The translations under genes were made by a program, and so were the position numbers. From Candidatus Vogelbacteria bacterium RIFOXYD1_FULL_51_18 (lineage in GTDB: Bacteria > Patescibacteriota > Minisyncoccia > Phycocordibacterales > UBA9988), in assembly GCA_001823095.1 (NCBI GenBank), contig MHTL01000012.1:1035-65034 (forward strand): DNA of 64,000 bases, given 5' to 3'. Shown piece by piece: positions 46,794 to 63,950 of this stretch. The first letter of the stretch is position 1; every line of letters starts with the position of its first letter. The notes beneath the pieces are model-generated. The model was given only the letters and a program-made list of their open reading frames with translations, had not been told where the DNA came from and made no database searches.

Positions 46794-47015
46794 TTACTTC
46801 AACAAGGTAATAAAATCTTCGGCAGAAAGTTGAGCGTCACGTAAAATTTTCCTTAACAGGCCAGTTGCAATTATCTTGTGCATCGGCACAGTGACCGGCT
46901 TACGCTTAATACAACTAAGGCGCACATGACTGCCACGCTGACGAACCATGGTATACCCCAATTTTGCCAGACAATTAACACATTCCTTACCAGAGACGAT
47001 CGGCAGCTTTGGCAT
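46794..47015 (-). CDS. hicA: HicA-family mRNA interferase toxin
   Basis: 73 aa with the YcfA/HicA pattern (...GYTMVRQRGSHVRL...). It lies directly downstream of hicB. Confidence 0.6.
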   Translation of the reverse strand: MPKLPIVSGKECVNCLAKLGYTMVRQRGSHVRLSCIKRKPVTVPMHKIIATGLLRKILRDAQLSAEDFITLLK

Positions 47016-47017
47016 AA

Positions 47018-47266
47018 CTAAACGCTAATGGTGTGGAGGCTCAACTCTTGAGGGTGATATCGATGCAGGACGGCTCGATTACTCTTCTCTTCCAGGCAGA
47101 GGGCAATTACCTCGCGAATATTCTTAAGCGCCTCATCGAGTGTTTTGCCGTGAGTATAACAGGCATCAAAAAGAGGGCATTCCACAACATAAAAACCATC
47201 CTCATCACGCTCAATGATGACAGGAATAGTTGGCCGCCCAGATGATCGAAGTACTGTTTTTTTCAT
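47018..47266 (-). CDS. hicB: HicB-family antitoxin (UPF0150)
   Basis: 82 aa with a HicB N-terminal RNase-H-like fold (IPVIIERDEDGFYVVECPLFDACYTHGKTLDEALKNIREVI). Confidence 0.6.
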   Translation of the reverse strand: MKKTVLRSSGRPTIPVIIERDEDGFYVVECPLFDACYTHGKTLDEALKNIREVIALCLEEKSNRAVLHRYHPQELSLHTISV

Positions 47267-47306
47267 AAAAAAAATTTAGCACAAAAACACTCTGAAAACA
47301 AGCGCT

Positions 47307-47338
47307 TCTCCCGAACCCAGACGATTCATTTTGAGTAA
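47307..47338 (+). repeat. 32-bp direct repeat, right copy (abuts tRNA-Ile 3' end)
   Basis: Identical to 46721-46752. The two copies flank the 554-bp hicBA cassette. Confidence 0.8.
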
Positions 47339-47410
47339 TGGGCGTGCTAGGACTCGAACCTAGAACCAGCCGTGTATAAGACGGCTGCTCTACCATTGAG
47401 CTACACGCCC
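47339..47410 (-). tRNA. tRNA-Ile (anticodon TAT, reads AUA)
   Basis: Reverse complement reads GGGCGTGTAGCTCAATGGTAGAGCAGCCGTCTTATACACGGCTGGTTCTAGGTTCGAGTCCTAGCACGCCCA, with a 5-bp anticodon stem GCCGT/ACGGC and loop CTTATAC. Confidence 0.65.
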
Positions 47411-47418: not shown

Positions 47419-49362
<1,944 letters not shown>

Positions 49363-49396
49363 AGAGTATAGCGAAATAGGGAGAAAATGAAAGTTG

Positions 49397-49590
49397 TGGT
49401 GTTTGTTTGAAAAAGTCAGAACCCATTTTACGGAGAACCCTGAAAACTAATGCGGACTCGGCAGGGCGAAACATTTGTCTGGGGATATGGATTCGCCCTG
49501 CCTCGGCTTCCGTCCCGCCCGCAGGAGGGGTCTGGGGAGGAATGCGGGCGGGTTTCGGACTGGGGGTTTTCGGAAATTCGGCGGCTATCA
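49397..49590 (+). repeat. 194-bp perfect inverted repeat, left copy (att-arm-like)
   Basis: Identical in inverse orientation to 51637-51830. It contains GC-rich internal hairpins and begins with TGGTG. Confidence 0.85.
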
Positions 49591-49591
49591 A

Positions 49592-49921
49592 TTATTTTAA
49601 CCAAGATTTGACAATTTCCAAAACTTGGACAATTTGTGTTGCGGCAAGCGCAACGCCGACAACGGTTAGCCAAAAAATTCGCTTTTGTAATTTCTCGTTT
49701 TTACCGTCAAGATTTACGATAGTTTTTTCAAGACTCTGGACAGCGGGTTTCAATCTACGAGACATTTCCACATTTGATTGAATTGAAACCTTGTCGCCAT
49801 AATCGTATAAATGAGCGTTCGCCAATATTTCGTCTGGAAGTTTGGTAAAATCCGAATTTGGCGTAAGCTCGGTGTTATATTCCTTCTTTAGTCGTTCTTT
49901 GATTTGATCCTTTGTTTCCAT
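49592..49921 (-). CDS. Hypothetical small protein with C-terminal TM helix
   Basis: 109 aa with a coiled N-terminal part and a C-terminal hydrophobic helix. AT-rich. Confidence 0.35.
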   Translation of the reverse strand: METKDQIKERLKKEYNTELTPNSDFTKLPDEILANAHLYDYGDKVSIQSNVEMSRRLKPAVQSLEKTIVNLDGKNEKLQKRIFWLTVVGVALAATQIVQVLEIVKSWLK

Positions 49922-49956
49922 TATTTACCTGAGGGTGTTGGTTTTATTAAGAAAAA

Positions 49957-51336
49957 CTATTTAATGTCTTTGAGAAAAATTGAAGTCTTAAACACACCAC
50001 TATCTTTTGTTGTTGCGAATACAACATATCCACCAACAGATTCATCTTCAATCGTAAACAAAGATTCTATAGATGTTGGTAAATTACTCTCGAACTTTGT
50101 CCAGGTATGTGCGTTATCTATACTAACCAAGAGTAAATTTTGACCATACTCTTTACTACCTATAACAAATACCACATCTTCAAGTGCAGTTCTTTCCTTA
50201 ATATTAAATTCTTCTTTTTCTTCGTTGTCATAACAATCATAGGTTTTAATGTCGTTGTCATTATGTGAGTAGACAAAAATGTGGGTTGGAGAAACTCCCA
50301 AATCTTCTAAAGAGTTTTCTAAAATCCAATGACCTCCTCTATTTAGGCAGGTTTTGACAAGTAACTTGCTACTTAAACTAATATTCGCATATATATGTGG
50401 AATGCCTTTTTGTGAGTATGCAACTTCCGCGCCAGAATTAAGTGGATGAGGTCCAAATTTTTCTAAAATAGACTCGAGAAGATCATCTTTTTCGCAACCC
50501 ATAAAATCCTCCCAGCAAGAATAGATTGTTCTATCAGTATGAAGCCACGTCGGCCAAGTATTTTGTGTCAAGAGAGAAACAACAGATTCAGAATTGATAA
50601 CGCGAGCTTTCTCCCCGTTGGATAATGTTCTTTCTTGCAAAAAATCTATTTTCTTGGCTCTCACTATGTCGTATGTTATATCGTCATCTTCGATAGCTTT
50701 CCCCAAAAGCCTATTCGTCTCTTCTCGATTATTTTTATTAATTTCTTTTTGATCTTTATAAAGACTCTCGAAAAATGATTTGATATATGCTCGCGTTTCT
50801 TGCTGTGGCTCAGCAAAAAATCCGATGCCAGTTGATATAGAATAGATTATTGGATCTTTTGTAATGCCATAATCTGCTAAGTGAATTTTTTCATAACGAT
50901 TTTCCCTTGAATATGGTGTTAGGGCAATGTCCGCCATTCCTGTCCCCACGAGTATCCAATTATTCCCCCCATCTAAACTTTCAAACACGTCGCCTACACC
51001 CAATGCAAATATGGCTTTTGCATATGGAGCGTGGACTATTTTTCTAATCTCTGGTAATGGATTTGGTAAACCATTATTTATTGCAACCCAGCTTACCCCT
51101 TTGTCTATACTTTTAAAAATTCCCGTATCCGTTCCGGCATAAAGAATGGATTGATTGTTTACATCAGCAATAACAGTATTCACAGAAAGAGTGGTTAATC
51201 CAGTATTGGATTGTTCCCAAACTACGGTTTTATTAGTAGAAGTTTTTTGTGAAAATATAACAGCCAAAATTATCACCAACAAGACGGCTCCGATGATAAG
51301 ATGCTTTTTTGTAAATTTTATATTATTTTCAATCAT
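49957..51336 (-). CDS. Membrane-anchored protein with BNR/Asp-box repeats
   Basis: 459 aa with an N-terminal TM helix and SxDxGxxW boxes (SIDKGVSW, SLDGGNNW). The C-terminal half is unknown. Confidence 0.45.
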   Translation of the reverse strand: MIENNIKFTKKHLIIGAVLLVIILAVIFSQKTSTNKTVVWEQSNTGLTTLSVNTVIADVNNQSILYAGTDTGIFKSIDKGVSWVAINNGLPNPLPEIRKIVHAPYAKAIFALGVGDVFESLDGGNNWILVGTGMADIALTPYSRENRYEKIHLADYGITKDPIIYSISTGIGFFAEPQQETRAYIKSFFESLYKDQKEINKNNREETNRLLGKAIEDDDITYDIVRAKKIDFLQERTLSNGEKARVINSESVVSLLTQNTWPTWLHTDRTIYSCWEDFMGCEKDDLLESILEKFGPHPLNSGAEVAYSQKGIPHIYANISLSSKLLVKTCLNRGGHWILENSLEDLGVSPTHIFVYSHNDNDIKTYDCYDNEEKEEFNIKERTALEDVVFVIGSKEYGQNLLLVSIDNAHTWTKFESNLPTSIESLFTIEDESVGGYVVFATTKDSGVFKTSIFLKDIK

Positions 51337-51349
51337 ATTTTTATAAAAG

Positions 51350-51571
51350 TTATTTTATAAAATATCCAACCTCTTTTTTATAAAGTGCAGCAAACTTCCT
51401 TATCTCAACAATATCTAGCCTTTGTTCGCCCGCCTCGGACTTTGAAATATAAGATTGAGGACGCTTCAATTTCTTTGCGGCTTCAACTTGCGTAAAACCT
51501 GCCTCTAAGCGGGCATTCTTCAATTTTAACGCAAAATTCTGATATTCCTTTGTTCTTATTGAACTACCCAT
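51350..51571 (-). CDS. XRE-family helix-turn-helix transcriptional regulator
   Basis: 73 aa, LKNARLEAGFTQVEAAKKLKRPQSYISKSEAGEQRLDIVEI. Confidence 0.7.
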   Translation of the reverse strand: MGSSIRTKEYQNFALKLKNARLEAGFTQVEAAKKLKRPQSYISKSEAGEQRLDIVEIRKFAALYKKEVGYFIK

Positions 51572-51636
51572 ATATTAACAGTTTATATTCACAAAGGCAA
51601 TATTCAAAGTTAGAATAATGTGCTATGCTTAATTTA

Positions 51637-51830
51637 TGATAGCCGCCGAATTTCCGAAAACCCCCAGTCCGAAACCCGCCCGCATTCCTCCCCAGACCCC
51701 TCCTGCGGGCGGGACGGAAGCCGAGGCAGGGCGAATCCATATCCCCAGACAAATGTTTCGCCCTGCCGAGTCCGCATTAGTTTTCAGGGTTCTCCGTAAA
51801 ATGGGTTCTGACTTTTTCAAACAAACACCA
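51637..51830 (-). repeat. 194-bp perfect inverted repeat, right copy
   Basis: Reverse complement equals 49397-49590. Confidence 0.85.
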
Positions 51831-51983
51831 GAATTAAAGTCAGGTCATTTTTAGAAATTTTTTCTTTGGCGTTCGCCAAAGAAAGCCAATGGTTTTGGGC
51901 AATTCCGAACGCTCCGCGTTTTTTTAAGGTGAGGTTCAAAAATTCAAAAGCCGAAGATTTTTGGAGGGAGATTTTTTTGGAGG
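51826..51983 (-). repeat. Inverted duplicate of the recombinase gene 3' end (attP-arm-like)
   Basis: Reverse complement matches 63409-63557 except for a ~10-bp indel. It joins the 194-bp repeat at the same CTGGTG where the recombinase gene meets tmRNA. Confidence 0.7.
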
Positions 51984-52098
51984 GGAGGTCGAAGACGAAT
52001 ACATAACACTTGCCCCACCCTTCCCGTGCGCGTGTTAAAAACTTTTGCCGACTTGGAGATCGGCAAACTCCCTAAAAACAAGCAAGCAACTGATATAT

Positions 52099-55000
52099 CT
52101 AAACTATACTTTCCCTCAATATGTATCCGACAACAGAACCTTTTGCTATTAAGAAATCTAGTATCACTAACACATCTTGTTTTAACTTTTTGGTCTCTCT
52201 TATTTTTGTACGATTTTTATAAATATACTTTCTGATAAGATTTTCTATATAGAAAAGCGTGTTTACCTCAAGTTTGGCAGTAAATAAGTTTTTATTTTTT
52301 ACTAACATACCTGATATCCACTGTACGCCATCCTCCATATAGGTACTCCCGATATCATTTAGTAGTTTTGAAATTGCATAGAGGGTTGAGGCACATTGTC
52401 CAATATTCTCCGAAATTTCTTTAAAAAATCTTTTATCACTATCTTTGAATGTATGCCATTCGGTCGCAGATTCTTTCCACGGATTTTGAGCAAAAAGATA
52501 ACTTTTAATAATTTTATCAACGTACCAATATCCATCTCCCTTTTTACAAAGCTCAATTATTTTCTCGTTAAATATTCTCCAAACTTCCCAAAATATCTCA
52601 TAAGAGTTTAAATAATCCTCAGCAGATATAAATTCCTCAAATAAATCAGCGATTGCCTCTGAACTATTAAATTTATCAAGAAATGGTTGAAGGTATTCTT
52701 GAATTTCTTCTTTTGAAGAACTCAAGACGAGATAGGCTAGTTTTTCTAAAAAACCATGCTTTGTCGCATAATCAACTCTGTCCTCTCTGTCATTTGAAAT
52801 TAATTTTTCAGCAAAAGCAAAGATGGTTTTTTTGACTACTATTTTATGCTCCTCATTTTTAGTTTTTAGAGGAATCAATTGGAAAGCTGTTTTTAATGTG
52901 TATAAATCTATCTGCTCAATATCTCCAACGTCACCAATTAACAATTGATTGTTTTGGATTTTCTCTAAATACACTTTATTTTCTTCCAAGAATCTTTTCA
53001 TTGCATCACTATCTTGTATATCGTACTGATTCTTTATATATTTTTCTTGGCGTATTTTTTCTCTTAACTCATCAAATTTTGGTTTCAAATATAAGTAGCC
53101 AAACAATAATGACTGAGCATCATCAAAATTGGTACTCCATAGCTTGTGAATAGCCGTGATTGAAAATACGTTAAAACTTGTACCAGCCATATCAATGGGA
53201 TAATAGTTAAACAAATTAAACAACAAAATTTCTTTTATCTTTCCTTTTTCTTTCGGAAATTTCTCAAATAGAACTGGCAATACCGAAATTGCCGATTGCG
53301 CACCATCAGTTACCTGATATTGATAGTTAGGGCCGGAAGACGAAGACACGGCTTCTAAAACAATATCGGCGCAAAATTCGCCTTCCTCTTTTGAAAGCTT
53401 ATCAAGAAAATCTCTAATCATGACAGAGCAGACTTCTGAGGGGATAGAATGATTTAAAAGGTAAAAACTTTCTTCTTCCGAGTGCTGAAGTTTTAATGAT
53501 TCAGGTTTTTTAACAGTTTTTAATTTTGCAATGATCTCTTCAACTTCCTTAAGCGGAAGCTTGGGATCGTCCTCATATTTATTATACTGCTTGTATTTTT
53601 CGTCATTTCTGAGCCTGAAATTTGCCCATAATTTTAATTGCAGGTATTTAGATGATTCGGAATTCTTTTCTAAAGATTTCTCGCTGTATTCTTTTAATTT
53701 CGGATCAATTTGAGGATTAAAATTAATCAAATATCCGTCATCAGTTTTTTCTGAGACAAGATTCATTTTCCTTCTATCCATTCTTGCCAAGTAAAGTCTC
53801 CACGTTTTGTCTGATTCGGTTTCTACCGATGGATCGGGTAACTTTTTGTAATAATCGTCCAATATTTCCCACAGAATCTTTTGTCTGTTCTTTGATTCCT
53901 CCTCATCAACTTCTTCACTTCTAAATAATTGGTAATTTAGAAATACATTCTCTAAAGACCATTTTCTATGCTTGTCATCACAGGTTTTTAACCTCTCCTC
54001 TTCGTGAATTTCATTTTTTGAATTGATACCAAAACTTGCTCTTAAAGACAGAAGTGAACTTTTTTGACCTTGGTCTAAAACTAACCTGCTAGTGTCATAA
54101 AGAAAAAAGTCTTTTGTTCTAAAAAGAATTTTAGCCACATTAAAAGTCTTTTCGGGATAAGCCGACACAACACTTGCAACCACGCCTGAGATAGAAGCTG
54201 ATTTTGAATTTCTAATTAGATACAAAAGCCAGCTTTCCAAAGTCTTTGAATCAGTAACCTTTCCAATTTCAAGGAAATACCTTTCTAAGGCCATGTGCAT
54301 TGATTCTAGGACGTGAGGAGCAACCTGCGTACCTCTGAACGCGCACCAAAGCCGACAGCTTATGTATTGTTTTATTGGCTTATCTTTTTCAATAAAGACC
54401 TCAACTTCTTCAACTTCATATTTAGCAAATTCAGATTTGGCAAAGTATTCTACTGCTTTATTTGTAAATTTTAATATGAAATCTATTGTTTCTTGGAGCG
54501 AAGATTGGAGCAGCCAATAAATTGGAGTCTGATATGAGCTAGCCGGAAAATAATCTAAATGATCATCTTCCATGTCAAAATGTTCCGCAATGTCTATCCC
54601 AGAACGACCGGAGAAGTGATCTTCTTTTGGCGTGAACGACCAAAATAAATCTGCTAATTCCAAAACATATTTAGGAAAAGTCTTGGCAATAGTGACCCCT
54701 TCAAATTTTGTCAAAATAATTTCAGATAAATCAACATAAGGGTCTCTGTGTCTTTTCCACTTATTCTTTACAATTTCTTTAAAAATTCCCTCTAGTTGGC
54801 CTTTAATCTCTAGGGAGCTATAAAGAATTGTCTGCAAGAGCTTATCTTTAGTACCATCGTCAGAAATATGGACGTCTTCTTTAATAGTCCATTGGTAGTA
54901 TTTCAGTGCCATTAAGCCAGAATATTTTGTCGTTTCTCCTTCCTTAAATTTACTAGTCCAATCGTGGATTATCGGCAAGATAAAATGGATATTTCTAATA

Positions 55001-56907
55001 CCAACTTGATCAAAGTTTTCAAAAACAAATTTAATAAGACTTTCCCATCCTTGTCCTTTCGGCCTCGTCAAAATATATTTGAGGGAAAAGATATTTAAAT
55101 TTTTAACTCCTAGCTGTTTAAAAAAGTCATCATCAACTTCCTTGCAGGCAATTCTTAAAAGGAAAAACATTTTGTGCAACAAGCTTTCTTCGTATTTATA
55201 GTTAACGGTTAAAGATTGCGCGACTTTGGATGAATTGTCATACTTGACTACTTTTTCTGGGATACTTAGTAATTCGTTTTTAAAGAATTCAAAGAATACA
55301 GAGGAGAAATCGGAAAGTAAAACAGAAACCAATATTTCATCTTTCCAAAAAGATTCTACCCCATTATTCTTTACAGCCTCTTCAATAAAGGTTTTTATCT
55401 CTTCGTTCTGTAGCAACAACTTTTCCGATACCCATTTTCTAAAAGCACGGCGCAAAGGCAAAGAACTGCCCAGATTTTGGAAAAAAGTTTTAGTGTCGGT
55501 CTTTTTCCCAAATTCAATTTGAATATTTTTTTCCAACGCCCACTCCTCATAGATATCATGAGTAATGAAATAGCCATGCGGCGATTCATATCCTAAAATC
55601 CCGTCCTTCTTTAACTCATTATCCAGAATTTCTGATTCACAATCTGGATTAATAAAGAACTGTCCATCGGTTGCCCTCTGCAATGCCATCTTTAAAAAGC
55701 ATTGTTCTCTTGCAGGTTTAGATTTAATAATTATTTTATTCCATAATTTGTCTTTAAAATCCGTATAGTTTATTTGCTCACCCTCCTTGTAAATCTTCAA
55801 ATACTCGTTTAAGTAAAATGGATTTCTAACAAGGTCTAGTAATTTTTCGTCACTCGGAAGAGAAAACTTATATGTCTCAGAAAGTTTACTTAGCTCCTTT
55901 GCTTCCAAATTTTGGATATTGATATTTAAAGGGGCAATTCCATAAATCTCAAAAAACTGATAGTTTAAATCTTCTAGATAATTATCTCTTGTAGTAAAAA
56001 TAACTTTCCAATTTTCCTTAACCACAATAGATAAAAACTCCTTAAAGGGGTCGGTGTTTTTCAAATCCAACAATTTTTCTGCGGAATCAATTGCAATAAT
56101 TTTATCGCCATCATTTTTATGCCCATCTAAAAAATCCTGAAAACTATACCCTGTAAAGAATTCACTTAGATTTCTCAGCTCAAATTCGGTTGCTTTGAAA
56201 ATATAGAAAGGTATCTTGCCTTTCGTTTCTTCATAGAAGTCTTTAATGACCGCTGTCTTTCCAACTCCACCAACACCACTCAAGATCAATACCTTATCTA
56301 GGCTAGTTTTTATTTTCTCCAAATTACCACTCCTGTCTATCTTTATATTTTGACCATTAAAGGCGATGGTCGTTTGTATCTCGCTTAATATATTCTCCGA
56401 ATGATCCTGTTGATTTTTTATTAGGTCAAATATACTTTTGTCTAAACTAAAAAAATGTTTAGCTATTATTTCGTTATCAACCGATACAAAAGTAGATTCA
56501 AAAAAACTTGCAGTTCTCCATTCTAACTTAATGCCAAGCGTATTCGCCTTACCCTCTACGTCTTTCTTCCCTTGAGGTTCTTTGCCTTTATTTTGTACCC
56601 ACTCCTCGTTAGTATATAAAATTAGCTTTGTAATATTTGTGTAATCTCTCTTTGCCTTTTCAAGGACACCAATCAGCTCAGTCGTATGGTTTGACAATGA
56701 TGTACTGTAAAACTTAGCTTGCCAACCTATCACTTCTTCTTTTTCTTGAACAGTATCTGTCTCTATGGCAGATTGATTTTTATAACGAAAAATTCCAACA
56801 ATTTTATTGAACTCTCTGCAAAATAATGAGTAACAAAACCACTCAAAATTGTTTTGAGGATTTTCGCTAAATTTCGCCTTAAAGATGTTCCAACTTGGCT
56901 TAATCAT
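52099..56907 (-). CDS. Giant STAND/NB-ARC-like P-loop NTPase (1602 aa) with N-terminal ~200-aa domain and long C-terminal helical repeat region; candidate Avs-like antiphage protein
   Basis: Walker A VLILSGVGGVGKTAV (aa ~216-229) and a Walker B-like KIIAIDSAE motif, then >1200 aa of alpha-helical repeat-like sequence. The N-terminus has a D...QxK patch (AIETD...VIGWQAKF). It sits 74 nt downstream of Type III res on the same strand, and a 14-codon uORF overlaps the start (ATGA). Confidence 0.55.
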   Translation of the reverse strand: MIKPSWNIFKAKFSENPQNNFEWFCYSLFCREFNKIVGIFRYKNQSAIETDTVQEKEEVIGWQAKFYSTSLSNHTTELIGVLEKAKRDYTNITKLILYTNEEWVQNKGKEPQGKKDVEGKANTLGIKLEWRTASFFESTFVSVDNEIIAKHFFSLDKSIFDLIKNQQDHSENILSEIQTTIAFNGQNIKIDRSGNLEKIKTSLDKVLILSGVGGVGKTAVIKDFYEETKGKIPFYIFKATEFELRNLSEFFTGYSFQDFLDGHKNDGDKIIAIDSAEKLLDLKNTDPFKEFLSIVVKENWKVIFTTRDNYLEDLNYQFFEIYGIAPLNINIQNLEAKELSKLSETYKFSLPSDEKLLDLVRNPFYLNEYLKIYKEGEQINYTDFKDKLWNKIIIKSKPAREQCFLKMALQRATDGQFFINPDCESEILDNELKKDGILGYESPHGYFITHDIYEEWALEKNIQIEFGKKTDTKTFFQNLGSSLPLRRAFRKWVSEKLLLQNEEIKTFIEEAVKNNGVESFWKDEILVSVLLSDFSSVFFEFFKNELLSIPEKVVKYDNSSKVAQSLTVNYKYEESLLHKMFFLLRIACKEVDDDFFKQLGVKNLNIFSLKYILTRPKGQGWESLIKFVFENFDQVGIRNIHFILPIIHDWTSKFKEGETTKYSGLMALKYYQWTIKEDVHISDDGTKDKLLQTILYSSLEIKGQLEGIFKEIVKNKWKRHRDPYVDLSEIILTKFEGVTIAKTFPKYVLELADLFWSFTPKEDHFSGRSGIDIAEHFDMEDDHLDYFPASSYQTPIYWLLQSSLQETIDFILKFTNKAVEYFAKSEFAKYEVEEVEVFIEKDKPIKQYISCRLWCAFRGTQVAPHVLESMHMALERYFLEIGKVTDSKTLESWLLYLIRNSKSASISGVVASVVSAYPEKTFNVAKILFRTKDFFLYDTSRLVLDQGQKSSLLSLRASFGINSKNEIHEEERLKTCDDKHRKWSLENVFLNYQLFRSEEVDEEESKNRQKILWEILDDYYKKLPDPSVETESDKTWRLYLARMDRRKMNLVSEKTDDGYLINFNPQIDPKLKEYSEKSLEKNSESSKYLQLKLWANFRLRNDEKYKQYNKYEDDPKLPLKEVEEIIAKLKTVKKPESLKLQHSEEESFYLLNHSIPSEVCSVMIRDFLDKLSKEEGEFCADIVLEAVSSSSGPNYQYQVTDGAQSAISVLPVLFEKFPKEKGKIKEILLFNLFNYYPIDMAGTSFNVFSITAIHKLWSTNFDDAQSLLFGYLYLKPKFDELREKIRQEKYIKNQYDIQDSDAMKRFLEENKVYLEKIQNNQLLIGDVGDIEQIDLYTLKTAFQLIPLKTKNEEHKIVVKKTIFAFAEKLISNDREDRVDYATKHGFLEKLAYLVLSSSKEEIQEYLQPFLDKFNSSEAIADLFEEFISAEDYLNSYEIFWEVWRIFNEKIIELCKKGDGYWYVDKIIKSYLFAQNPWKESATEWHTFKDSDKRFFKEISENIGQCASTLYAISKLLNDIGSTYMEDGVQWISGMLVKNKNLFTAKLEVNTLFYIENLIRKYIYKNRTKIRETKKLKQDVLVILDFLIAKGSVVGYILRESIV

Positions 56908-56981
56908 TGTAATTTTCTTAGGTTTTGGGAGAGTTCCATTTTTTCCATTCTGAACCTCTTTAATACGAATTATTCATAAAT

Positions 56982-59675
56982 TTATTTCTTATCAAATACC
57001 CTCACGACCTCATCAAAGTTTTTGAGTTTATCTTTTTCCCATTCTTCTTGTTTTATATAAAGTGCTTTATAGACAACCCGATTTTGGCGATCGTTCACAT
57101 CTACACACCACTTTTGCAGTCTTTCAAATTTCAACTTATCATTTTCTTCTTCTCGTCCTTTTGTTTCAATAATATATACAGTTTTTTCGTCTTTTTTAAC
57201 AAAGAAGTCTGGATAGTAGGTGGCGATAAACCCTTCCGAATTTTTATACTCAATTCTAAGCGCGCTCGCTTCCTTGTTTTGAAAGTTTTTTGCGAAAGAA
57301 ATTACATCATCACAATTTTCAAGAAAATCCGAAAATACCAATTCAAAATCACTATCCCCAACAATCTTATTGAAAACTGATTTTTTAGGTATTAAATATG
57401 ATTTGTCATTAACAACAAAAGGTCTTGCTTCGCTGATTTTTATATAGTTCTTTATTTCCGTATCGCCCTTGTCCTCTACAGTGAGATCATTGATAGCTTT
57501 TTTGAAAGAATCTTTAATGAGCCTTATATATTCAACTTCTGATAAGTTTCTCAAGGTATTGAGGTCTGACAAATTCACAGGACTATCAAACATATTATTT
57601 TGCAAAAACTCTCTTACTTTGCCGAATAAAATATCGTAGCAACCAAACAATCGTAGCTCTCGCATTATTGCTTGCGCAAAAAACCCGACAACGCTTTGAT
57701 AATCTGGCTCTATGTCTCCAGAAAGTATTGTTGTATGGTGAGTTTTTTCACCAACAACATCTTTAAAAACAATTTCTCGTTTTTCTTCCTCCGAAAATAT
57801 TTTAACCTTTACTTTTTTATTTCCAAACTTAGACACATCCAACTCGGCAAGATTTTTGTATTCTCGCTGAATTCTAGGGGACATTACCGGAATCTCAATA
57901 TCAAGTTTCTCAATATCTTTATTCGGATTATCTTTATCAACCTCAATAACCATCGGAGCTATTGGCTTAGCTCCTATTCCCATGGCTTTCTTCTCAAGAA
58001 TAACGCCCTCGCCTTTGATTGACTCAACAAAGTCCATAAAAGCGGGAGTTCCAACAACACTCACATACTCCTCAACATCATCTCTGCCAAAAAACATTCT
58101 GCGGAGTCCTCGCCCGAGAGTTTGTTCAGGAAGAATTTTTGAATCGGCGGCGTATGGTCGTAGCCCAACGATTGTCGTTACATTTTTTACATCCCAACCC
58201 TCTTTGAGCATCATTACAGAAATAATCACCTTGAAAGGACTTTCCCAACTATCAATTTCGTTTGCCTGTTTTCTAAGCAAATCCAATTCTTCTCTGCTTT
58301 TGCCAGATACACTTTCAGAAATTTCACCACTTTTATTTGTGTGAATGGTCAAAACCGCGCCTTTCAGTTCCTTAAAACTTGTTTCAATATAACCTGCCAC
58401 CTCATCACAGTTCTTTGTATCGTCTGTCATAATAAAAAGAATAGATTTCTTGCCCATCGGTTTTAACGCCTCGTATGTTTTTTGCCATTCTTCAATACCA
58501 AGATTTATATAATCTCTGTATTTTTCGCTAAATAGCGTGCTTTGATTTTCTTTTAACTTTCCTCGGCTCGCCGCGTCTGGCACAACCGGATTTTTTACCA
58601 CTCTTTGATGGATTGCTTCAACAAGCGGATAATCCGAAATTGTTTGCACAAAAATAGAGCCGTCATTCTTTTTTGGCGTAGCTGTCAAATCAATTTGCAA
58701 GGATAGTTTCGTTCCTTTTTGTTTTAGGCGATTATCTATGTCCGTAATAGATTTAACCCAAGCTGATTTGTCATCGTGCAAGTGATGTGCTTCGTCATTG
58801 ATTACAATAAGTTCGTCAATATCCCTCACAATCATTCCCAGATCAACAGTAGAATCGCTTGTTTTCGTAACTGGCTTATCACCCAAGAAATATGCAGAAG
58901 TATCCTCGTCTTCTATGCTTGAATCTTTTATATCACCCTCGAAAACTCTGTGGATATTAGTCAAAAATATATTTCCAGTATCAGAAACATTACGCAAATC
59001 ATCTTGCAAGTGCAAAGTCATTTGAAAATCATCTTGCCAGTTTTGCCCTTGGTATCCATTCTCCGGCAGAACAGGGTCGCTAAAAAATATCTTCAATCCC
59101 TCAAAATCATGTTTTATCCTTTCAAAAACGATGACATTCGGGGTTATTAAAAGAAAATTCTTTGCCAAATTAGAATCTTCCTCATATTTTTTATGAAAAT
59201 ACGCCCATGCGACAATCAAACTCATTACCTTTGTTTTACCTGCGCCTGTCGCCATTTTTATTACAAAACGAAGCCACTCCTCGGTAAACATTTGTGGGCT
59301 TAATACGCCGGTAGAATTGTAGCGAATGAGGTCGTATTTATCTTTTACTTTTGCTACTTCATAAAGCCAAATGACTGTTTCTAGTGCCTCTCTCTGTGCG
59401 AAATAGTATTTGAAATGAGAAGATACTCCTTGCTGGTCATACAAAATATGTTCTTCCTTAAACCACCAGTTCAAAAGTGATTTTGAAGTATCGCTCGCTC
59501 CATCATAATTTTTATCTCGCCATTCTTTTACTTTTTCTCGTAAACCAGCAACAAGAGGAGGTAAGAGTTTTTGAATAGCTCCCTTTTCTCTCAAATCTTC
59601 GTCAGCAGGAAACCACCGAATGTTCGGGTCAAGTATTGCGTATGGGTCTTTGGGAAAATCTTTATGGAGTGCCAT
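56982..59675 (-). CDS. res: Type III restriction enzyme Res subunit (DEAD/DEAH helicase + endonuclease)
   Basis: Walker A MATGAGKTKV and DEAH box (VINDEAHHL). 897 aa. The upstream mod stop lies 1 nt from the ATG. Confidence 0.8.
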   Translation of the reverse strand: MALHKDFPKDPYAILDPNIRWFPADEDLREKGAIQKLLPPLVAGLREKVKEWRDKNYDGASDTSKSLLNWWFKEEHILYDQQGVSSHFKYYFAQREALETVIWLYEVAKVKDKYDLIRYNSTGVLSPQMFTEEWLRFVIKMATGAGKTKVMSLIVAWAYFHKKYEEDSNLAKNFLLITPNVIVFERIKHDFEGLKIFFSDPVLPENGYQGQNWQDDFQMTLHLQDDLRNVSDTGNIFLTNIHRVFEGDIKDSSIEDEDTSAYFLGDKPVTKTSDSTVDLGMIVRDIDELIVINDEAHHLHDDKSAWVKSITDIDNRLKQKGTKLSLQIDLTATPKKNDGSIFVQTISDYPLVEAIHQRVVKNPVVPDAASRGKLKENQSTLFSEKYRDYINLGIEEWQKTYEALKPMGKKSILFIMTDDTKNCDEVAGYIETSFKELKGAVLTIHTNKSGEISESVSGKSREELDLLRKQANEIDSWESPFKVIISVMMLKEGWDVKNVTTIVGLRPYAADSKILPEQTLGRGLRRMFFGRDDVEEYVSVVGTPAFMDFVESIKGEGVILEKKAMGIGAKPIAPMVIEVDKDNPNKDIEKLDIEIPVMSPRIQREYKNLAELDVSKFGNKKVKVKIFSEEEKREIVFKDVVGEKTHHTTILSGDIEPDYQSVVGFFAQAIMRELRLFGCYDILFGKVREFLQNNMFDSPVNLSDLNTLRNLSEVEYIRLIKDSFKKAINDLTVEDKGDTEIKNYIKISEARPFVVNDKSYLIPKKSVFNKIVGDSDFELVFSDFLENCDDVISFAKNFQNKEASALRIEYKNSEGFIATYYPDFFVKKDEKTVYIIETKGREEENDKLKFERLQKWCVDVNDRQNRVVYKALYIKQEEWEKDKLKNFDEVVRVFDKK

Positions 59676-59676
59676 G

Positions 59677-61773
59677 TTATATATTTACTTCAACTACTTT
59701 CGTCGTATCATTTCCGAAAATATCCACAACCTTTACGGCGATTTTGTGCTTACCTTTTGTCGCCACCTTTGGAGAAGTAACGAGGTCAAGATTTCTGTTC
59801 TTTTTTGTGCGGAAACTCTGCCATTCGTTGTCAAAAATATAGTCGCCAGTCCAAATTTCTTTTTCTTTGCCGTCTTCCATTATTTTTATGATTTCCTTTC
59901 TGCTCGCAAAATCAAAATCTACCGCCCAATAGTCAATCCAGTCGCTCCATTTTTTAGTCAAAATCTCCTTGGATATTTCTTCCGTCTTTTTATCTTTTGA
60001 AATTTTTACCACTTGGCCATCTTCCACCACAACTTTAGATCCGCCCGGGCGCAACGCCTCGGCTATCTCACCAGAATCATCTTGATTATAAAAAACAGAA
60101 AAATCAGTAAGCTCTATTGATATTTCTTTATCACTTCCTCGTCCTTTGATAATCGGCTTCGCCTCAATAAACGCAACATCATAAAACTTCACTTGTCCTT
60201 TTTCTACCGCTTTTTTGTCAAAAACTTCTCGTGGAATTATTCTGAAAGCGATATCAATCCCTTGATCTTTGTATTGTGAAAAATCCAGCCCCATTTCGTA
60301 ATCAAAGCCAAGTACATCAATTTTAGTTATTCCTTTTTCTTTGCATTCCTTCACAATATCTTGCACGAGTTTTGAGGAAACGGGTGTATTGATAGGTCCT
60401 ACCGCTACAAGGCGATCTCTTTTCTTGCCGATAACATTCACAAAAGATTCTATCGGCTCTGCTTTGTATGCGGAAAGTATAAGTTTTACAAATTCCTTTT
60501 CTTTCCTTTCGGCTTGTTTTGATTTTTCCTCTGCTCGCAAATCATCATTTGTCGCTAGGAAATTTTCTCTTTCATATCTCCCAACATTCAGAATCTCAAA
60601 AGCTCGAAAATTTTTACTTTCCTTTTTCAGTTCTCTTTGTATTCCAATTAGTCGTTTACGAGATGTGTGTATGCCGAATTTACCCAAATCAGAACCAATC
60701 CACTTTCTACCAAGTTTTTCAGCAACAGCGAGAGTCGTACCAGCACCGCAAAAGAAATCTGCTACAAGATCACCCTCATTGGTGGATGCACTTATGATTC
60801 TCTCCAGTAGTGCTTCGGGCTTCTGTGTCGCGTAGTCGGTGTTTTGAGTTTTATCGGCAGGTTGTAAACAAGCTATCTTCCATACATCATCAACTCTTCT
60901 TACATCTCTCATTTGATACTGCACATTACCACTCTCATCTCTAGCATTTATTGCTTTTCCTTCAAAATATTTTCTTTTTAATTGCTTAACGGGTTGGTCT
61001 CTCTTTTCTTCTTGTGGATTGAAAGTATAATTTGAATCTTTATTTTTTACATAAAACAATATTCTGTCGTGTGCGGAGGAATATTTTCTAGTACCACTCG
61101 CCATTTTATTATAGTAATACCAAGATATATCACCTAGGAAATTATCTTTTCCAAAAATCTCATCTAAAATACATCTTATATAAGAATTTGTTTTCCAGTC
61201 GCAGTGCACATAAATACTTCCGTCTTCAGCGAGTAACGAATACATAAGTTTTAGTCGCTCATAAAGCATCGCATTAAAACTATCCACCCCTTTACCCCAT
61301 GTATCACGAAAAGCGATCTCCTCTATGACGGAAGGTTTCTTTTTAAACTCATCTTCTCCTATTTTTATATCAATAGAAAAATCTGCGCCTACATCAAACG
61401 GCGGGTCAATATAAATCAATTTCAAACCGCCTTGCGCTTCTATTTCTTTGCGAAGTGGTCCATTTTTGAGAGAGGAGAGAATCAGTTTATTGTCTCCCCA
61501 AATCAATTTATTCGTCCATCCGGTTATTTGTCGTCCTGTTGTATCAAAAAGAGAATTTTGATTGCCGAATTTTGCATCACTTCTTGGCTCGTCTATTTGC
61601 TCAATAACTTGAAAAGGCAAGACAACATTCGTTACCTCATTTGTCTTTCCATTCCAAAGAAGCTCAACCTCTCTGTCATCATCAAAGAGCAAGAAACGAT
61701 ATTTTTCCGGAAGCGGTTTTCCCGCTTCCAAGTATTTCACAACATCTCTTTTTTCATTATCAGTTAATTTCAT
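59677..61773 (-). CDS. mod: Type III Mod DNA methyltransferase (beta-class N6A/N4C MTase)
   Basis: Motif IV IYIDPPFDVG precedes motif I DFFCGAGTTLAVA. Confidence 0.8.
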   Translation of the reverse strand: MKLTDNEKRDVVKYLEAGKPLPEKYRFLLFDDDREVELLWNGKTNEVTNVVLPFQVIEQIDEPRSDAKFGNQNSLFDTTGRQITGWTNKLIWGDNKLILSSLKNGPLRKEIEAQGGLKLIYIDPPFDVGADFSIDIKIGEDEFKKKPSVIEEIAFRDTWGKGVDSFNAMLYERLKLMYSLLAEDGSIYVHCDWKTNSYIRCILDEIFGKDNFLGDISWYYYNKMASGTRKYSSAHDRILFYVKNKDSNYTFNPQEEKRDQPVKQLKRKYFEGKAINARDESGNVQYQMRDVRRVDDVWKIACLQPADKTQNTDYATQKPEALLERIISASTNEGDLVADFFCGAGTTLAVAEKLGRKWIGSDLGKFGIHTSRKRLIGIQRELKKESKNFRAFEILNVGRYERENFLATNDDLRAEEKSKQAERKEKEFVKLILSAYKAEPIESFVNVIGKKRDRLVAVGPINTPVSSKLVQDIVKECKEKGITKIDVLGFDYEMGLDFSQYKDQGIDIAFRIIPREVFDKKAVEKGQVKFYDVAFIEAKPIIKGRGSDKEISIELTDFSVFYNQDDSGEIAEALRPGGSKVVVEDGQVVKISKDKKTEEISKEILTKKWSDWIDYWAVDFDFASRKEIIKIMEDGKEKEIWTGDYIFDNEWQSFRTKKNRNLDLVTSPKVATKGKHKIAVKVVDIFGNDTTKVVEVNI

Positions 61774-61777
61774 AAAT

Positions 61778-61984
61778 TTATTTGATTAAGTCTTCAATCG
61801 GAACGGCTAGTGCTTTTGCGAGACGCTCAATGTTTTTCAGAGCCATATTCCGCACACCCCGTTCAATACCGCTTATATAAGTCGAGTGAACACCTAAAAC
61901 TTTGGCGAGATCGGCTTGCGACATCTGTTTTTTGAGTCTAATTTCTTTAACCTTTTTTCCAAACTTGGCTGATATATCTGTCAT
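61778..61984 (-). CDS. Controller (C) protein, XRE-family HTH, upstream of mod
   Basis: 68 aa, MTDISAKFGKKVKEIRLKKQMSQADLAKVLGVHSTYISGIERGVRNMALKNIERLAKALAVPIEDLIK. The track ORF 61778..62392 is an N-terminal over-extension. Confidence 0.6.
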   Translation of the reverse strand: MTDISAKFGKKVKEIRLKKQMSQADLAKVLGVHSTYISGIERGVRNMALKNIERLAKALAVPIEDLIK

Positions 61985-62008
61985 AAATTCATATTTTACC
62001 CCTTGCGT

Positions 62009-62062: not shown

Positions 62063-63628
62063 ATGTCTAAATACTTTCTTTACGCAAGAAAATCCACCGA
62101 TGTCGAGGACAAGCAAGTCCTCTCTATTGAAGCCCAACTCGCCGAACTGCGGGCACTCGCCAAGCACGAGAACCTTTCCATATCGGACGAGTTTATAGAA
62201 AAGCGATCGGCAAAAATGCCCGGTCGCCCGATCTTCAACGATATGCTCCGCCGCATACAGACGGGCGAAGCACAAGGCATTATTTGTTGGAAGATTGACC
62301 GCTTGGCTCGCAATCCCGTGGACGGCGGACAAATTCAATGGCTTCTGCAACAAGGAGTTATCGCACATATTCAAACCCACGATAGAAGCCATTATCCAAA
62401 CGACAATGTTTTGATGATGTCCGTCGAGTTAGGCATGGCTAACGAATATATCCGCCAACTAAGTGCGAACACCGCAAGAGGATTACGGCAGAAAGCACGG
62501 CAGGGAGACTTTCCCGGCCTTGCTCCGCTTGGCTACATCAACAATTCCAACATCAAGAAAATCGCCGTTCATCGTAAAAATGCGAAGCTCATTAAAAAGA
62601 TGTTTGAACTTTACGCAACGGGAAGTGTCCGCCTTGAAAATCTTTCCGTTGTTTTGGAACAGGCGGGTATCCAATCCAAAAATAAAAATCGTGTTCATAT
62701 TTCACGAATATCAAATATTCTCACCAATCCGATTTATTACGGACACTTCCGCCACGCAGGGGAAATATACGAGGGCAAGCACGAGCCGATAATCACGAAA
62801 GACCTCTTTGATAGGGCTAACGCCGTCTTGCGAGGCCGAGGCCGCACCCCCGCTAAAAAGACCGACCCGAGGCCGTTTTGTGGCCTCCTGTCGTGTGGGA
62901 GTTGCGGTATGGGAATAACGGGAGAGATAAAGATAAAGAGGCAGAAGAACGGCAACACCCACCGCTATATTTATTACCATTGCACGAAGAAGTCCAAGAC
63001 GAAGAAATGTCCCGAGCCGTGTATTCGGCAAGAGGAATTAGACCGCCAGTTGTCGGTCATGCTTTCCGAATACGCTATGCCGAAAGAATGGGTAGCCCCA
63101 CTTTCCGTCATGCTCGACAAGGAGGAACACGACACAAAAAATTCCGCGTCGGAGGCTGTTCAAGAAATGCGAGGGCAAGTCAGCGACTTTTCCCGCAACC
63201 TCGCCAGACTTACCGATATATATGTATCGCAAGACATAGAGCGAGATGACTACCTTGAGAGGCGTCGTTCGCTCATGTCCGACAAGAAGTCCGTCGAGGA
63301 GCAAATAGCCCGTCTTGAACATACCCCCTCCGCGTGGATCGAACCGACCCGAGACTGGATTAAAGACGCTTCCATACTGGAAGAAACAGCAAAAACAGAC
63401 GACCTCCCCTCCAAAAAAATCTCCCTCCAAAAAATCTTCGGCTCGAACCTCACCTTAAAAAAACGCGGAGCGTTCGGAATTGCCCAAAACCATTGGCTTT
63501 CTTTGGCGAACGCCAAAGAAAAAATTTCTAAAAATGACCTGACTTTAATTCTGGTGGAGATGGCGGGAATCGAACCCGCGTGCAATGAGAGGCGCATGCA
63601 TGCTTCTACGGAGCCTAGACTGCTTTAA
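62063..63628 (+). CDS. Large serine recombinase (resolvase catalytic domain + recombinase domain + Zn ribbon)
   Basis: YARKSTDVEDKQVLSIEAQ (catalytic Ser), ...RLARN..., a CGLLSCGSCG...C Zn-ribbon, and a coiled-coil. The last ~77 nt overlap the tmRNA 3' end. Confidence 0.85.
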   Translation: MSKYFLYARKSTDVEDKQVLSIEAQLAELRALAKHENLSISDEFIEKRSAKMPGRPIFNDMLRRIQTGEAQGIICWKIDRLARNPVDGGQIQWLLQQGVIAHIQTHDRSHYPNDNVLMMSVELGMANEYIRQLSANTARGLRQKARQGDFPGLAPLGYINNSNIKKIAVHRKNAKLIKKMFELYATGSVRLENLSVVLEQAGIQSKNKNRVHISRISNILTNPIYYGHFRHAGEIYEGKHEPIITKDLFDRANAVLRGRGRTPAKKTDPRPFCGLLSCGSCGMGITGEIKIKRQKNGNTHRYIYYHCTKKSKTKKCPEPCIRQEELDRQLSVMLSEYAMPKEWVAPLSVMLDKEEHDTKNSASEAVQEMRGQVSDFSRNLARLTDIYVSQDIERDDYLERRRSLMSDKKSVEEQIARLEHTPSAWIEPTRDWIKDASILEETAKTDDLPSKKISLQKIFGSNLTLKKRGAFGIAQNHWLSLANAKEKISKNDLTLILVEMAGIEPACNERRMHASTEPRLL

Positions 63629-63950
63629 CTACTTGCCGGTAGTATTCGGTGCCGCGCGTCAAGAGCAGACGAAATCGCACAGCATCCTAGATTGTTTGTT
63701 TAGGTATCGTAGTCAATCATTCTACGGTACCGATCTTTGAGATATGACACCCTGCGTTTTAAGCAAAGATACTGTAAAACGCGGGCGGCATTACGCTAAC
63801 GCGAATGCGGGCGTGAAGTATGGCGATGCCACACTGCCGCCGTTTTCAGATGAGTTGGCACTTATCTGTTCTGCAATTATAGTAACGGCCTATTGCAGGA
63901 GGCCGGCGCGCACATACAAGGCGTACCCACTGTCTATGCCGATCATCCCC
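63552..63950 (-). ncRNA. ssrA: tmRNA (ssrA)
   Basis: Reverse complement starts GGGGATGATCGGCATAGACAGTGGG and ends GCACGCGGGTTCGATTCCCGCCATCTCCACCA. The 3' end matches 24 of 28 nt of E. coli ssrA (GCGGGTTCAACTCCCGCCAGCTCCACCA). The acceptor has a G3:U70 wobble. A candidate tag ORF ends AFALA-TAA (stop at plus 63791-63793). Confidence 0.75.

What the first reader, a model, noticed from the sequence alone, without database searches (positions are those of the whole stretch)
49397..51983. 194-bp perfect inverted repeats flanking a three-gene module, plus an inverted attP-like duplicate of the recombinase gene tail
Positions 49397-49590 and 51637-51830 are exact reverse complements, which is much too long and too perfect for chance. 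The right copy abuts a ~150-bp inverted copy of the last codons of the serine recombinase gene (51826-51983 versus 63409-63557, one 10-bp indel). It is joined at the same CTGGTG crossover used at the recombinase/tmRNA junction. In minus orientation this reads recombinase-tail, core, 194-bp element, which looks like an intact attP (P-O-P'). The left copy reads host-flank, core, 194-bp element, which looks like attL. This suggests the 194-bp element is the P' arm of the island's att site. The XRE/BNR/small-protein segment would then be either a serine-recombinase-invertible cassette or a nested, decayed second element.
Basis: seen in the sequence. Interest (0 to 1): 0.7.

Follow-up and report, generated by a model that had tools for sequence, protein, structure and literature searches.

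The report
Spare inverted attP in tmRNA island
The repeats are real: they are the left junction (attL) and a complete, inverted spare copy of the attachment site (attP) of a 14-kb anti-phage defence island that a large serine recombinase inserted at the 3' end of the tmRNA gene, and most related candidate-phyla-radiation (CPR) islands carry the same spare site.

Summary
49397-49590 and 51637-51830 are exact inverted copies. The right copy runs on into an inverted copy of the recombinase gene tail (51826-51991 vs 63400-63556, one ~10-nt insertion).

The reading attL + intact inverted attP + attR is supported. A different island sits between the same FtsH flank and the same tmRNA in another contig. 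This places the crossover at TG and shows that the 194-bp element is island DNA.

The structure is neither an assembly artefact nor a decayed second element:
- The same layout is in 10 independent metagenome contigs.
- An inverted tail copy occurs in 52 of 66 related recombinase loci, one on a record titled as a chromosome; 44 are followed by the conserved P' arm.
- The spare copy has its own conserved marks: a ~10-nt insertion and a G-rich hairpin.

Near-identical relatives carry either the recombinase's own tail or the spare copy joined to the same tRNA, so both sites are used in nature.

The 194-bp element is the P' arm plus two covarying hairpins of unknown role.

In this organism the three-gene segment has one orientation in all 10 contigs, so there is no sign of active flipping. 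Why a second attP is kept remains open.

Novelty: a new variant of serine-integrase islands. Interest: moderate to high.

The parts
49363..49396 (.). Host B arm: the 34 bp between the FtsH start codon (gene 47419-49362, minus strand) and the crossover.
   Evidence: Near-identical in L094 (one substitution in the stretch compared) up to ...GAAAGTTGTG, after which a different island follows. Host-like G+C content.
49397..49398 (+). Crossover dinucleotide TG of attL. It lies inside the 5-bp TGGTG shared by all three sites.
   Evidence: Deduced from the window and L094 junctions: GTTG[TG]GTGTTTG and GTTG[TG]CTCGCAC on the left; AATTC[TG]GTGGAG and CTGTAT[TG]GTGGAG on the right.
49397..49590 (+). 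Left copy of the 194-bp repeat: P' arm (AAAGTCAG 49412-49419, GAACCC 49419-49424), then hairpin 1 (49460-49502) and hairpin 2 (49514-49552).
   Evidence: P' arm homology. Hairpin covariation.
49591..51636 (-). Segment M, three minus-strand genes: 109-aa protein (49592-49921), 459-aa protein with weak sortilin/BNR-like matches (49957-51336), XRE-type HTH (51350-51571). G+C 35%.
   Evidence: Same orientation in all 10 contigs listed.
51637..51830 (-). Right copy of the 194-bp repeat: the P' side of the internal, inverted attP.
51826..51991 (-). Inverted copy of the last ~150 nt of the recombinase gene: the P arm of the internal attP. It contains palindromes Ra (51908-51920) and Rb (51864-51881), the ~10-nt insertion (inside 51933-51952) and the polypurine run 51963-51988.
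52005..52036 (.). G-rich hairpin AACAC...GTGTT that flanks only the internal tail copy. It is conserved in most relatives' internal copies examined.
52099..61984 (-). Main cargo: Avs4 (52099-56907), type III restriction subunit (56982-59675), type III methyltransferase (59677-61773), XRE regulator (61778-61984).
62063..63628 (+). Large serine recombinase, 521 aa. The open reading frame crosses the crossover and ends inside the antisense of the tmRNA gene.
   Evidence: Pfam Resolvase + Recombinase + Zn_ribbon_recom. PDB relatives: SPbeta integrase and A118 integrase.
63400..63556 (+). Recombinase gene tail: the P arm of attR, with core TG at 63552-63553. Contains CCTCCCCTCC...CTCCCTCC (63403-63428), Ra (63462-63474), Rb (63501-63518) and CTGACTTT (63539-63546).
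63552..63950 (-). tmRNA gene. Its CCA 3' end is the B' arm of the attachment site.
   Evidence: ARAGORN. Rfam RF00023, 87.5 bits.

Best explanation
The region 49397-51991 is the left end of a 14.15-kb defence island plus an internal spare attachment site. The island carries Avs4, a type III restriction-modification system and three small genes. It sits in a Candidatus Uhrbacteria (CPR) genome. A large serine recombinase (LSR) integrated it at the CCA end of the tmRNA gene.

Shown:
- The layout is B-TG-P' (attL, 49397), then segment M, then an inverted complete attP (P' arm = 194-bp element; P arm = copy of the LSR gene tail), then the main cargo, then the LSR gene, whose last ~150 nt are the P arm of attR, joined at TG to the tmRNA.
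- This two-attP layout is inherited across a large CPR family of LSR islands that insert at tRNA/tmRNA 3' ends.

Inferred:
- The excised circle carries two attP sites in inverted orientation. One is at the 3' end of the LSR gene. The other is at the end of the divergent XRE/cargo operon. Together they split the circle into a cargo segment and an LSR unit.
- Either attP can recombine with a tRNA-type attB, so the element can enter in either orientation and always keeps one intact attP.
- The two segments can flip relative to each other, by rare attP x attP exchange or by homologous recombination between the 150-350-bp repeats. The same processes keep the copies alike.

In this organism the island is in the common state (the LSR's own tail joined to the target) and looks fixed. 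The selective benefit of the spare attP, and the role of the two hairpins in the 194-bp element, are not established.
For: Identity of the sites:
- Junction alignment.
- L094 has the same flank and the same tmRNA around another island, with the break at TG.
- The G+C shift is at 49590.
- The LSR has the full LSR domain set and PDB relatives.

Family-wide layout:
- 95 of 120 closest homologues read through into tRNA-like sequence and 11 read into the P' arm.
- 52 of 66 LSR tails have an inverted tail copy upstream; 44 of these are followed by the P' motif; 16 also have the attL-side copy.
- Near-perfect 150-250-bp repeats around the cargo occur in L017, L019, L022, L025, L046, L062 and L067. 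L075 is a record titled as a chromosome of a MAG; its tail repeat is 99% identical and its cargo-flanking repeats are more diverged, 75-100% in pieces.
- Within the elements compared, the P and P' arms of one element match each other while they differ between elements.

Both attP copies are used:
- L099/L100 have the LSR's own tail joined to tRNA-Thr(cgt).
- In L102, 99.3% identical, the unit is flipped: the insertion-bearing copy is joined to the same tRNA and the LSR's own tail is joined to a second tRNA-Thr.
- L108 has another unit with its spare copy on that tRNA.
- The longest exact repeat shared by the two tails is 50-54 nt, against assembly k = 141.
- L030, L038 and L080 also have a tRNA joined to the spare copy.

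Segment flipping: the E-proximal genes and the truncated/full hairpin-2 copies are swapped in L024 relative to L022 and L025.

Published enzymology:
- A118 integrase recombines attP x attB in cis in either orientation, and attP x attP at under 5% of that rate (PMC3556126).
- SPbeta integrase synapses two attP sites (PMC11722253).
- The shared GAACC motif lies 4 nt (two representative family sequences) or 2 nt (window) further from the core in P' than in B'. This is close to the 5-bp rule for attP versus attB.
Against: - No characterised serine integrase element is known to need or carry two attP sites.
- An intact attP inside an integrated island should be hazardous when many tRNA genes can act as attB. 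L102 looks like such a rearrangement.
- 14 of 66 relatives lack a detectable copy, although at least 8 of those have under 2 kb of upstream sequence. One element in L064 appears to be a simple attL...LSR-attR island.
- In this organism all 10 contigs listed have one arrangement. Neither an empty attB nor a circular junction was found.
- The two copies differ in conserved ways (the ~10-nt insertion and the G-rich hairpin occur only in the spare copy). This hints at a specialised role that may not be recombination.
- The L024 inversion rests on a low-coverage assembly.
- No directionality factor was identified in the window.
Confidence: 0.6

Rival explanations
1. The internal copy is kept for expression rather than recombination. 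It ends the leftward XRE/cargo operon with the same 3' module as the LSR gene. It acts as a terminator or insulator, as an antisense partner of the LSR mRNA tail, or as a binding platform for the LSR or XRE proteins.
For: - The spare copy has its own conserved marks: the ~10-nt insertion and the G-rich hairpin.
- Both arms carry covarying palindromes.
- The 355-nt module folds better than shuffled sequence on the plus strand, z = -3.3.
- C-rich tail motifs are complementary to the G-rich hairpin loops.
- All cargo genes run towards it.
Against: - Natural variants show the spare copy joined to tRNAs exactly at the core, so it does recombine.
- There is no Rfam match.
- G-U pair counts do not single out a transcribed strand.
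- No promoter or terminator was detected inside the repeat.
Confidence: 0.15
2. The three-gene segment is a phase-variable invertible cassette that is flipped at a useful frequency in this organism. The flipping would be done by the LSR at the two inverted cores, or by RecA acting on the 194-bp repeats.
For: - Perfect 194-bp inverted repeats flank a membrane-anchored, BNR-like protein.
- The cargo segment has the opposite orientation in related elements.
Against: - All 10 contigs listed have the same orientation.
- Any promoter would lie inside the segment, so flipping would not switch expression.
- In relatives the segment holds 2-9 kb of unrelated cargo.
- attL x attP is not an LSR reaction.
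Confidence: 0.1
3. The recombinase unit (tail copy ... LSR gene tail) is an IS-like element with ~150-bp terminal inverted repeats. It moves on its own and has landed between a tRNA-type end and an older cargo island.
For: - Compact 2.2-2.5-kb units flanked by inverted tails occur in L018, L019 and L026.
- The unit is found flanked by two tRNAs in L102.
Against: - The cores at the two ends are in inverted orientation (CA vs TG) and the dinucleotide is not palindromic, so a serine recombinase cannot excise the unit.
- The P' arm always accompanies one end.
- The IS607 model scores 18.9 bits against a cut-off of 110.
Confidence: 0.07
4. The internal copy is the remnant of a second, nested or tandem element that has decayed.
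For: - Only a tail fragment of a recombinase gene is present.
- Tandem elements do exist in this family (L064/L099).
Against: - The same fragment, with the same boundaries, occurs in 52 of 66 loci spanning 52-96% LSR identity.
- Where compared, it matches the tail of its own LSR.
- It carries a recurring insertion.
- Tandem integration would give a direct copy, not an inverted one.
Confidence: 0.04
5. The repeats are an assembly artefact.
For: Many contigs of relatives break within ~50-300 bp beyond the tail copy.
Against: - 10 independent assemblies made with different assemblers agree.
- The internal copy has unique flanks and an indel.
- The layout is present on a record titled as a chromosome (L075).
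Confidence: 0.01

Closest known systems
Large serine integrase elements (phiC31, Bxb1, A118, SPbeta SprA, SCCmec Ccr, XisF)
   Same: - Resolvase + recombinase + zinc-ribbon architecture.
- Short att sites with a 2-bp crossover.
- attL and attR are hybrids of the P and B arms.
- attP half-sites are imperfect inverted repeats.
- A shared outer motif lies further from the centre in attP than in attB.
   Different: - The target is the CCA end of tRNA/tmRNA genes, and LSRs at least 90% identical sit at many different tRNAs.
- The attP core lies inside the recombinase's own reading frame.
- The arms are conserved for 150-190 bp and carry covarying palindromes.
- There is a second complete attP in inverted orientation.
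tRNA/tmRNA-targeting islands with tyrosine integrases (P4-like islands; 'Traffic at the tmRNA gene')
   Same: The target is the 3' end of a tmRNA or tRNA gene, the cargo is a defence island, and the same site is a hot spot with alternative occupants.
   Different: The enzyme is a serine, not a tyrosine, recombinase. Only 5 bp are shared at the junctions, so no displaced gene fragment marks the far end.
Fusellovirus SSV1-type integration (attP inside the integrase gene)
   Same: The attachment site lies within the recombinase gene, so integration into a tRNA gene changes the reading frame.
   Different: SSV1 uses a tyrosine integrase in archaea and the gene is split in two. Here only the codons after the crossover change: FV-stop becomes a 23-aa read-through.
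Yeast 2-micron plasmid FLP/FRT, and Hin/Gin invertible segments
   Same: Two inverted recombination sites split the element into two segments, one of which carries the recombinase gene. Isomers exist.
   Different: No replication gene or origin was recognised. The enzyme is an LSR, not FLP or a small invertase. In the integrated state the sites are attP plus hybrid sites, not identical sites.
Engineered cassette exchange with two inverted attP sites (for example MiMIC); CTX phage attP folded from two inverted sites (both recalled from memory)
   Same: A pair of inverted attP sites flanks a cargo segment. In CTX phage, complementary inverted sites can form a duplex attP within a single strand.
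   Different: The first is man-made. The second uses XerCD tyrosine recombinases, with the sites about 90 nt apart.

Membership tests
Large serine recombinase (serine integrase) integrative element | N-terminal resolvase-type catalytic domain with the serine nucleophile | tested here: met
   PF00239, E = 5.9e-22, residues 5-149. An N-terminal YARKST motif is present.
Large serine recombinase (serine integrase) integrative element | Recombinase domain plus zinc-ribbon domain C-terminal to the catalytic domain | tested here: met
   PF07508, 2.1e-15, and PF13408, 4.7e-09. PDB: SPbeta integrase 1.6e-13 and A118 integrase 4e-10.
Large serine recombinase (serine integrase) integrative element | Coiled-coil insert in the zinc-ribbon domain that controls directionality | not tested
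   No structure prediction or coiled-coil analysis was run.
Large serine recombinase (serine integrase) integrative element | Element bounded by hybrid attL/attR sites that share only a short core (2-bp crossover) and no long direct repeats | tested here: met
   The junctions share TGGVTG-type core TGGTG only. Comparison with L094 narrows the crossover to TG.
Large serine recombinase (serine integrase) integrative element | An empty attB and a circular attP junction are observable | tested here: inconclusive
   The empty-site pattern was not found in JGI metagenomes. The exact circular-form protein is not in the collection. A different island does use the same boundaries (L094). LSR-to-P' junctions exist for close relatives (P0134, P0139).
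Large serine recombinase (serine integrase) integrative element | Catalysis of attP x attB recombination | not testable with these tools
   This needs an in vitro or in vivo assay.
Serine DNA-invertase switch (Hin/Gin/Cin/Pin) | Small (~190 aa) invertase with a C-terminal HTH | tested here: not met
   The protein is a 521-aa LSR.
Serine DNA-invertase switch (Hin/Gin/Cin/Pin) | Both orientations of the segment coexist in a population | tested here: not met
   The 10 contigs listed all have one orientation. Only assembled contigs, not reads, could be examined. Opposite orientations are seen between relatives.
tRNA/tmRNA-targeting tyrosine-integrase island | Tyrosine recombinase, and a duplicated 3' fragment of the target gene at the far end | tested here: not met
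   Pfam found no tyrosine-recombinase domain in the eight island proteins scanned. Only 5 bp of the tmRNA end recur at attL.
IS607-type serine transposon / IS with terminal inverted repeats | Small serine transposase with a MerR-like N-terminus; the element ends are excised as a unit | tested here: not met
   The NCBIfam IS607 model scores 18.9 bits against a cut-off of 110. The cores at the two tail copies are in inverted orientation.
2-micron-type inverted-repeat amplification system | Autonomous replicon (origin or rep gene) with recombinase-driven flipping | tested here: not met
   No replication protein was found among the island's reading frames in Pfam, or among the subsets scanned with PADLOC and NCBIfam. 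An origin cannot be excluded.

The most novel reading that the evidence does not exclude
The inverted internal attP works as a built-in splint. In a single-stranded copy of the island, for example after DNA uptake by competence, on which CPR bacteria are thought to rely, the island's two ends would anneal side by side on the internal complementary copy. The ends are the 194-nt P' module and the ~150-nt recombinase tail. Annealing would bring the ends together exactly at the crossover. Trimming, ligation and second-strand synthesis would then regenerate the circular element with a duplex attP, without any excision in the donor.

This would explain four features:
- why the copy is inverted;
- why both arms are far longer than a recombinase site needs;
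- why the copy tracks both ends of its own element;
- why islands with no recognisable transfer genes spread so widely.
Probability: 0.05. Interest if true: 0.85.

Novelty: new variant of a known kind. Interest (0 to 1): 0.6.

Why it matters
The finding defines a very large and, as far as five full-text literature searches show, undescribed family of serine-integrase islands in candidate-phyla-radiation bacteria.

- **Target.** The family inserts at the near-universal CCA/T-arm end of tRNA and tmRNA genes. Near-identical enzymes sit at many different tRNAs.
- **Site position.** The attachment site lies inside the recombinase's own gene.
- **Spare site.** The islands keep a second, inverted attP.

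For the biology of mobile elements, this raises a testable question: why would an integrated island retain a live attP despite the risk of rearranging its host? L102 looks like such a rearrangement.

For genome engineering, an integrase family that recognises conserved tRNA sequence, with naturally paired inverted attP sites, may be of practical interest.

For annotation, it explains why contigs of these genomes often break next to tRNA genes.

Tried and rejected
1. **The 194-bp element as a host RNA gene targeted like a tRNA.** It is G+C-rich and ends in CACCA. Rejected: L094 shows that the host flank continues differently after TG, and the element travels with the islands.
2. **Excision of the recombinase unit at a palindromic AT inside GAATTC.** Rejected because the crossover is TG.
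3. **Rfam.** No family matches the repeat, even at E up to 5. L011's copy also gave only noise.
4. **Assembly artefact.** Rejected.
5. **Common IS terminal repeat.** There is no other copy in the window and no transposase.
6. **Empty attB.** The exact pattern was not found in JGI metagenomes.
7. **Circular-form recombinase ending ...LILVFV.** This exact sequence is not in the protein collection.
8. **Viral contigs.** No relatives were found with single-protein patterns.
9. **Deciding the transcribed strand of the hairpins from G-U pairs.** Inconclusive.
10. **A reading frame in the tail copy.** It is in frame in the window, but frame-shifted in L018, L025, L030 and L032, so it is not coding.
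11. **Literature.** Five full-text searches returned no paper describing this family or a natural two-attP serine-integrase element; one returned paper was opened and did not.
Full report
**Observation**

The repeat finder reports arms 49394-49590 and 51637-51833 (197 nt, 99% complementary); the central 194 nt are exact. It also reports 51826-51937 vs 63445-63556 (112 nt, 100%) and 51958-51991 vs 63400-63433 (34 nt, 100%). A three-way alignment shows that the internal copy reads, on the minus strand, recombinase tail, then TGGTG, then the 194-bp element. It differs from the true gene tail by a ~10-nt insertion and one A. The left copy reads host flank, TGGTG, 194-bp element. The gene tail reads tail, TGGTG, tmRNA.

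**Context**

- The tmRNA gene is at 63552-63950 on the minus strand.
- The 521-aa reading frame at 62063-63628 has the resolvase, recombinase and zinc-ribbon domains. It matches SPbeta and A118 integrases in the PDB.
- G+C is about 55% in the host DNA and 35% from 49591 to about 62000.
- The cargo is a full-length Avs4, a type III restriction-modification pair and an XRE regulator. The three-gene segment M lies between the repeats.
- The host is a Candidatus Uhrbacteria, judged from the source name of one member of a recombinase cluster about 96% identical to the window's enzyme.

**Not an artefact**

A protein from segment M is on record in 80 blocks of the collection. The 10 contigs listed come from JGI, NCBI and ENA assemblies. 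Where they reach far enough, they carry both copies with identical flanks and one gene order.

**Where the island ends**

A scan for the tmRNA 3' end found contig L094. There the same FtsH start and flank are followed, after ...GAAAGTTGTG, by a different 3.2-kb restriction-modification island. That island ends ...CTGTAT|TGGTGGAG at the same tmRNA.
- The native site is therefore GAAAGTTG-TG-GTGGAG.
- The crossover dinucleotide is TG.
- The 194-bp element belongs to the island, so 49397 is attL.
- A third occupant of the same site is in L095.
- An empty site was not found.

**The family**

The recombinase has thousands of close relatives in Patescibacteria.
- Of the 120 best, 95 read through into the reverse complement of a tRNA or tmRNA 3' end (...GIEP...). 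Another 11 read into a conserved sequence (...LLNxARTYF...).
- Enzymes at least 90% identical sit at the tmRNA and at several different tRNAs.
- In 79 genomic loci, the sequence that follows the core at the internal copy is a conserved P' arm, T.CCTYTTAAAC..GGCTAGAACCYATTTTAGCAAAAAT. The same arm follows a host flank at the far left end.
- Of 66 recombinase tails, 52 have an inverted tail copy upstream. In 44 of these the P' motif follows. In 16 the third, attL-side copy is also within reach.
- Near-perfect 150-250-bp repeats flank the cargo in L017, L019, L022, L025, L046, L062 and L067. L075 is a record titled as a chromosome of a MAG. It has the 99% tail repeat and more diverged cargo-flanking repeats, and its left P' arm has diverged.
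- The spare copy is not a decaying fragment. Where compared, it matches the tail of its own recombinase. In roughly half of the elements with a copy it carries the same kind of ~10-nt insertion (TTTTGAATTT and variants). In most internal copies examined it is preceded by a G-rich hairpin that the gene tail lacks.

**What the repeated module contains**

- The P and P' arms are imperfect inverted repeats; in the window these are CTGACTTT and AAAGTCAG.
- P' and the tRNA arm share a GAACC motif. It lies 4 nt further from the core in P' in two representative family sequences, and 2 nt further in the window. This fits the published rule that the outer motif is 5 bp further out in attP than in attB (PMC11722253). 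This point is an inference.
- Beyond the P' arm, the 194-bp element holds two hairpins with conserved G-rich loops. Eleven of 19 pairs show compensatory double changes across 13 elements.
- The tail holds two covarying palindromes.
- Whether these act as DNA or as RNA could not be decided. There is no Rfam match.

**Is the spare attP used?**

An identical recombinase (P0015) was traced across samples.
- In L099/L100, an upstream second recombinase unit has its own tail joined to tRNA-Thr(cgt), and its spare copy is joined to P'.
- In L102, 99.3% identical, the unit is flipped. The insertion-bearing copy with its G-rich hairpin is joined to the same tRNA-Thr(cgt). The recombinase's own tail is joined to another tRNA-Thr.
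- In L108, a different unit has its spare copy on that tRNA.
- The longest exact repeat shared by the two tails is 50-54 nt, and the assemblies used k = 141, so these are not mis-joins.
- L030, L038 and L080 also have a tRNA joined to the spare copy.
- The 11 'ARTYF' proteins, L011 and L092 show the complementary junction.
- The cargo segment is inverted in L024 relative to L022 and L025.
- Published work shows that A118 integrase recombines attP x attB in cis in either orientation and attP x attP at under 5% of that rate (PMC3556126). SPbeta integrase synapses two attP sites.

**Conclusion**

The 'decayed second element' alternative is not.

The best model is a two-attP island. The excised circle would carry two inverted attP sites. 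Either one can be used for integration, one always survives intact, and the two segments can flip.

For this window there is no evidence of current flipping or excision.

Three things remain unexplained: the benefit of the spare site, the role of the hairpins, and the role of the conserved insertion.

Five literature searches found no description of the family.

Noticed in passing
L094 1-3628 and L095 1-3336 (same tmRNA as window 63552-63950): The FtsH-tmRNA site is a hot spot. In the same aquifer metagenomes it holds a 3.2-kb restriction-modification island without a recombinase (L094) and a third, unrelated occupant (L095). L094 also has a short inverted att-like pair about 100 bp from the tmRNA.
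   Followed up: partly
L102 5225-8075, compared with L099 2229-5008: A recombinase unit lies between two convergent tRNA-Thr genes, so both of its attP sites have been used. This suggests that these elements can delete or invert host DNA between tRNA genes.
   Followed up: partly
window 52099-56907: The 1602-aa protein with no Pfam hit is a full-length Avs4 (AVAST type 4) anti-phage protein. It sits next to a type III restriction-modification pair, in a CPR genome.
   Followed up: partly
window 48406-48435 vs 63548-63577: The FtsH codons for [10 protein letters not shown] are 83% complementary to the tmRNA 3' end. The recombinase read-through there translates as LILVEMAGIEP. This looks like coincidence.
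   Followed up: no
window 51933-51952 and 52005-52036; L017, L018, L023, L026, L030, L108 and others: A ~10-nt insertion (TTTTGAATTT) and a G-rich hairpin (AACACGCGCACGGGTGGGTGGGGCAAGTGTT) mark only the spare tail copy, across elements whose recombinases are 55-95% identical. Their function is unknown.
   Followed up: partly
window 63403-63428 vs 49524-49541: The C-rich start of the repeated tail (CCTCCCCTCC...CTCCCTCC) is complementary to the G-rich loop of hairpin 2 (GGAGGGGTCTGGGGAGG). Single-sequence folds pair them. Covariation was not tested.
   Followed up: partly
L011 1814-11210; L098 2511-3461; L092 2683-4559: The cargo between or beside the repeats varies widely: a histidine-biosynthesis operon with HisS and a TrpR-like gene, a reverse transcriptase, and an NgoPII-type restriction-modification system.
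   Followed up: no
window 61778-62392: The 204-aa reading frame that overlaps the recombinase start is probably an over-extension. The HTH protein most likely starts at 61984 (69 aa), divergent from the recombinase gene.
   Followed up: partly
window 46794-47410: A HicA/HicB-like pair and a tRNA-Ile(TAT) lie just downstream of FtsH. In some contigs of the same population the HicB or HicA gene is differently called or missing.
   Followed up: no
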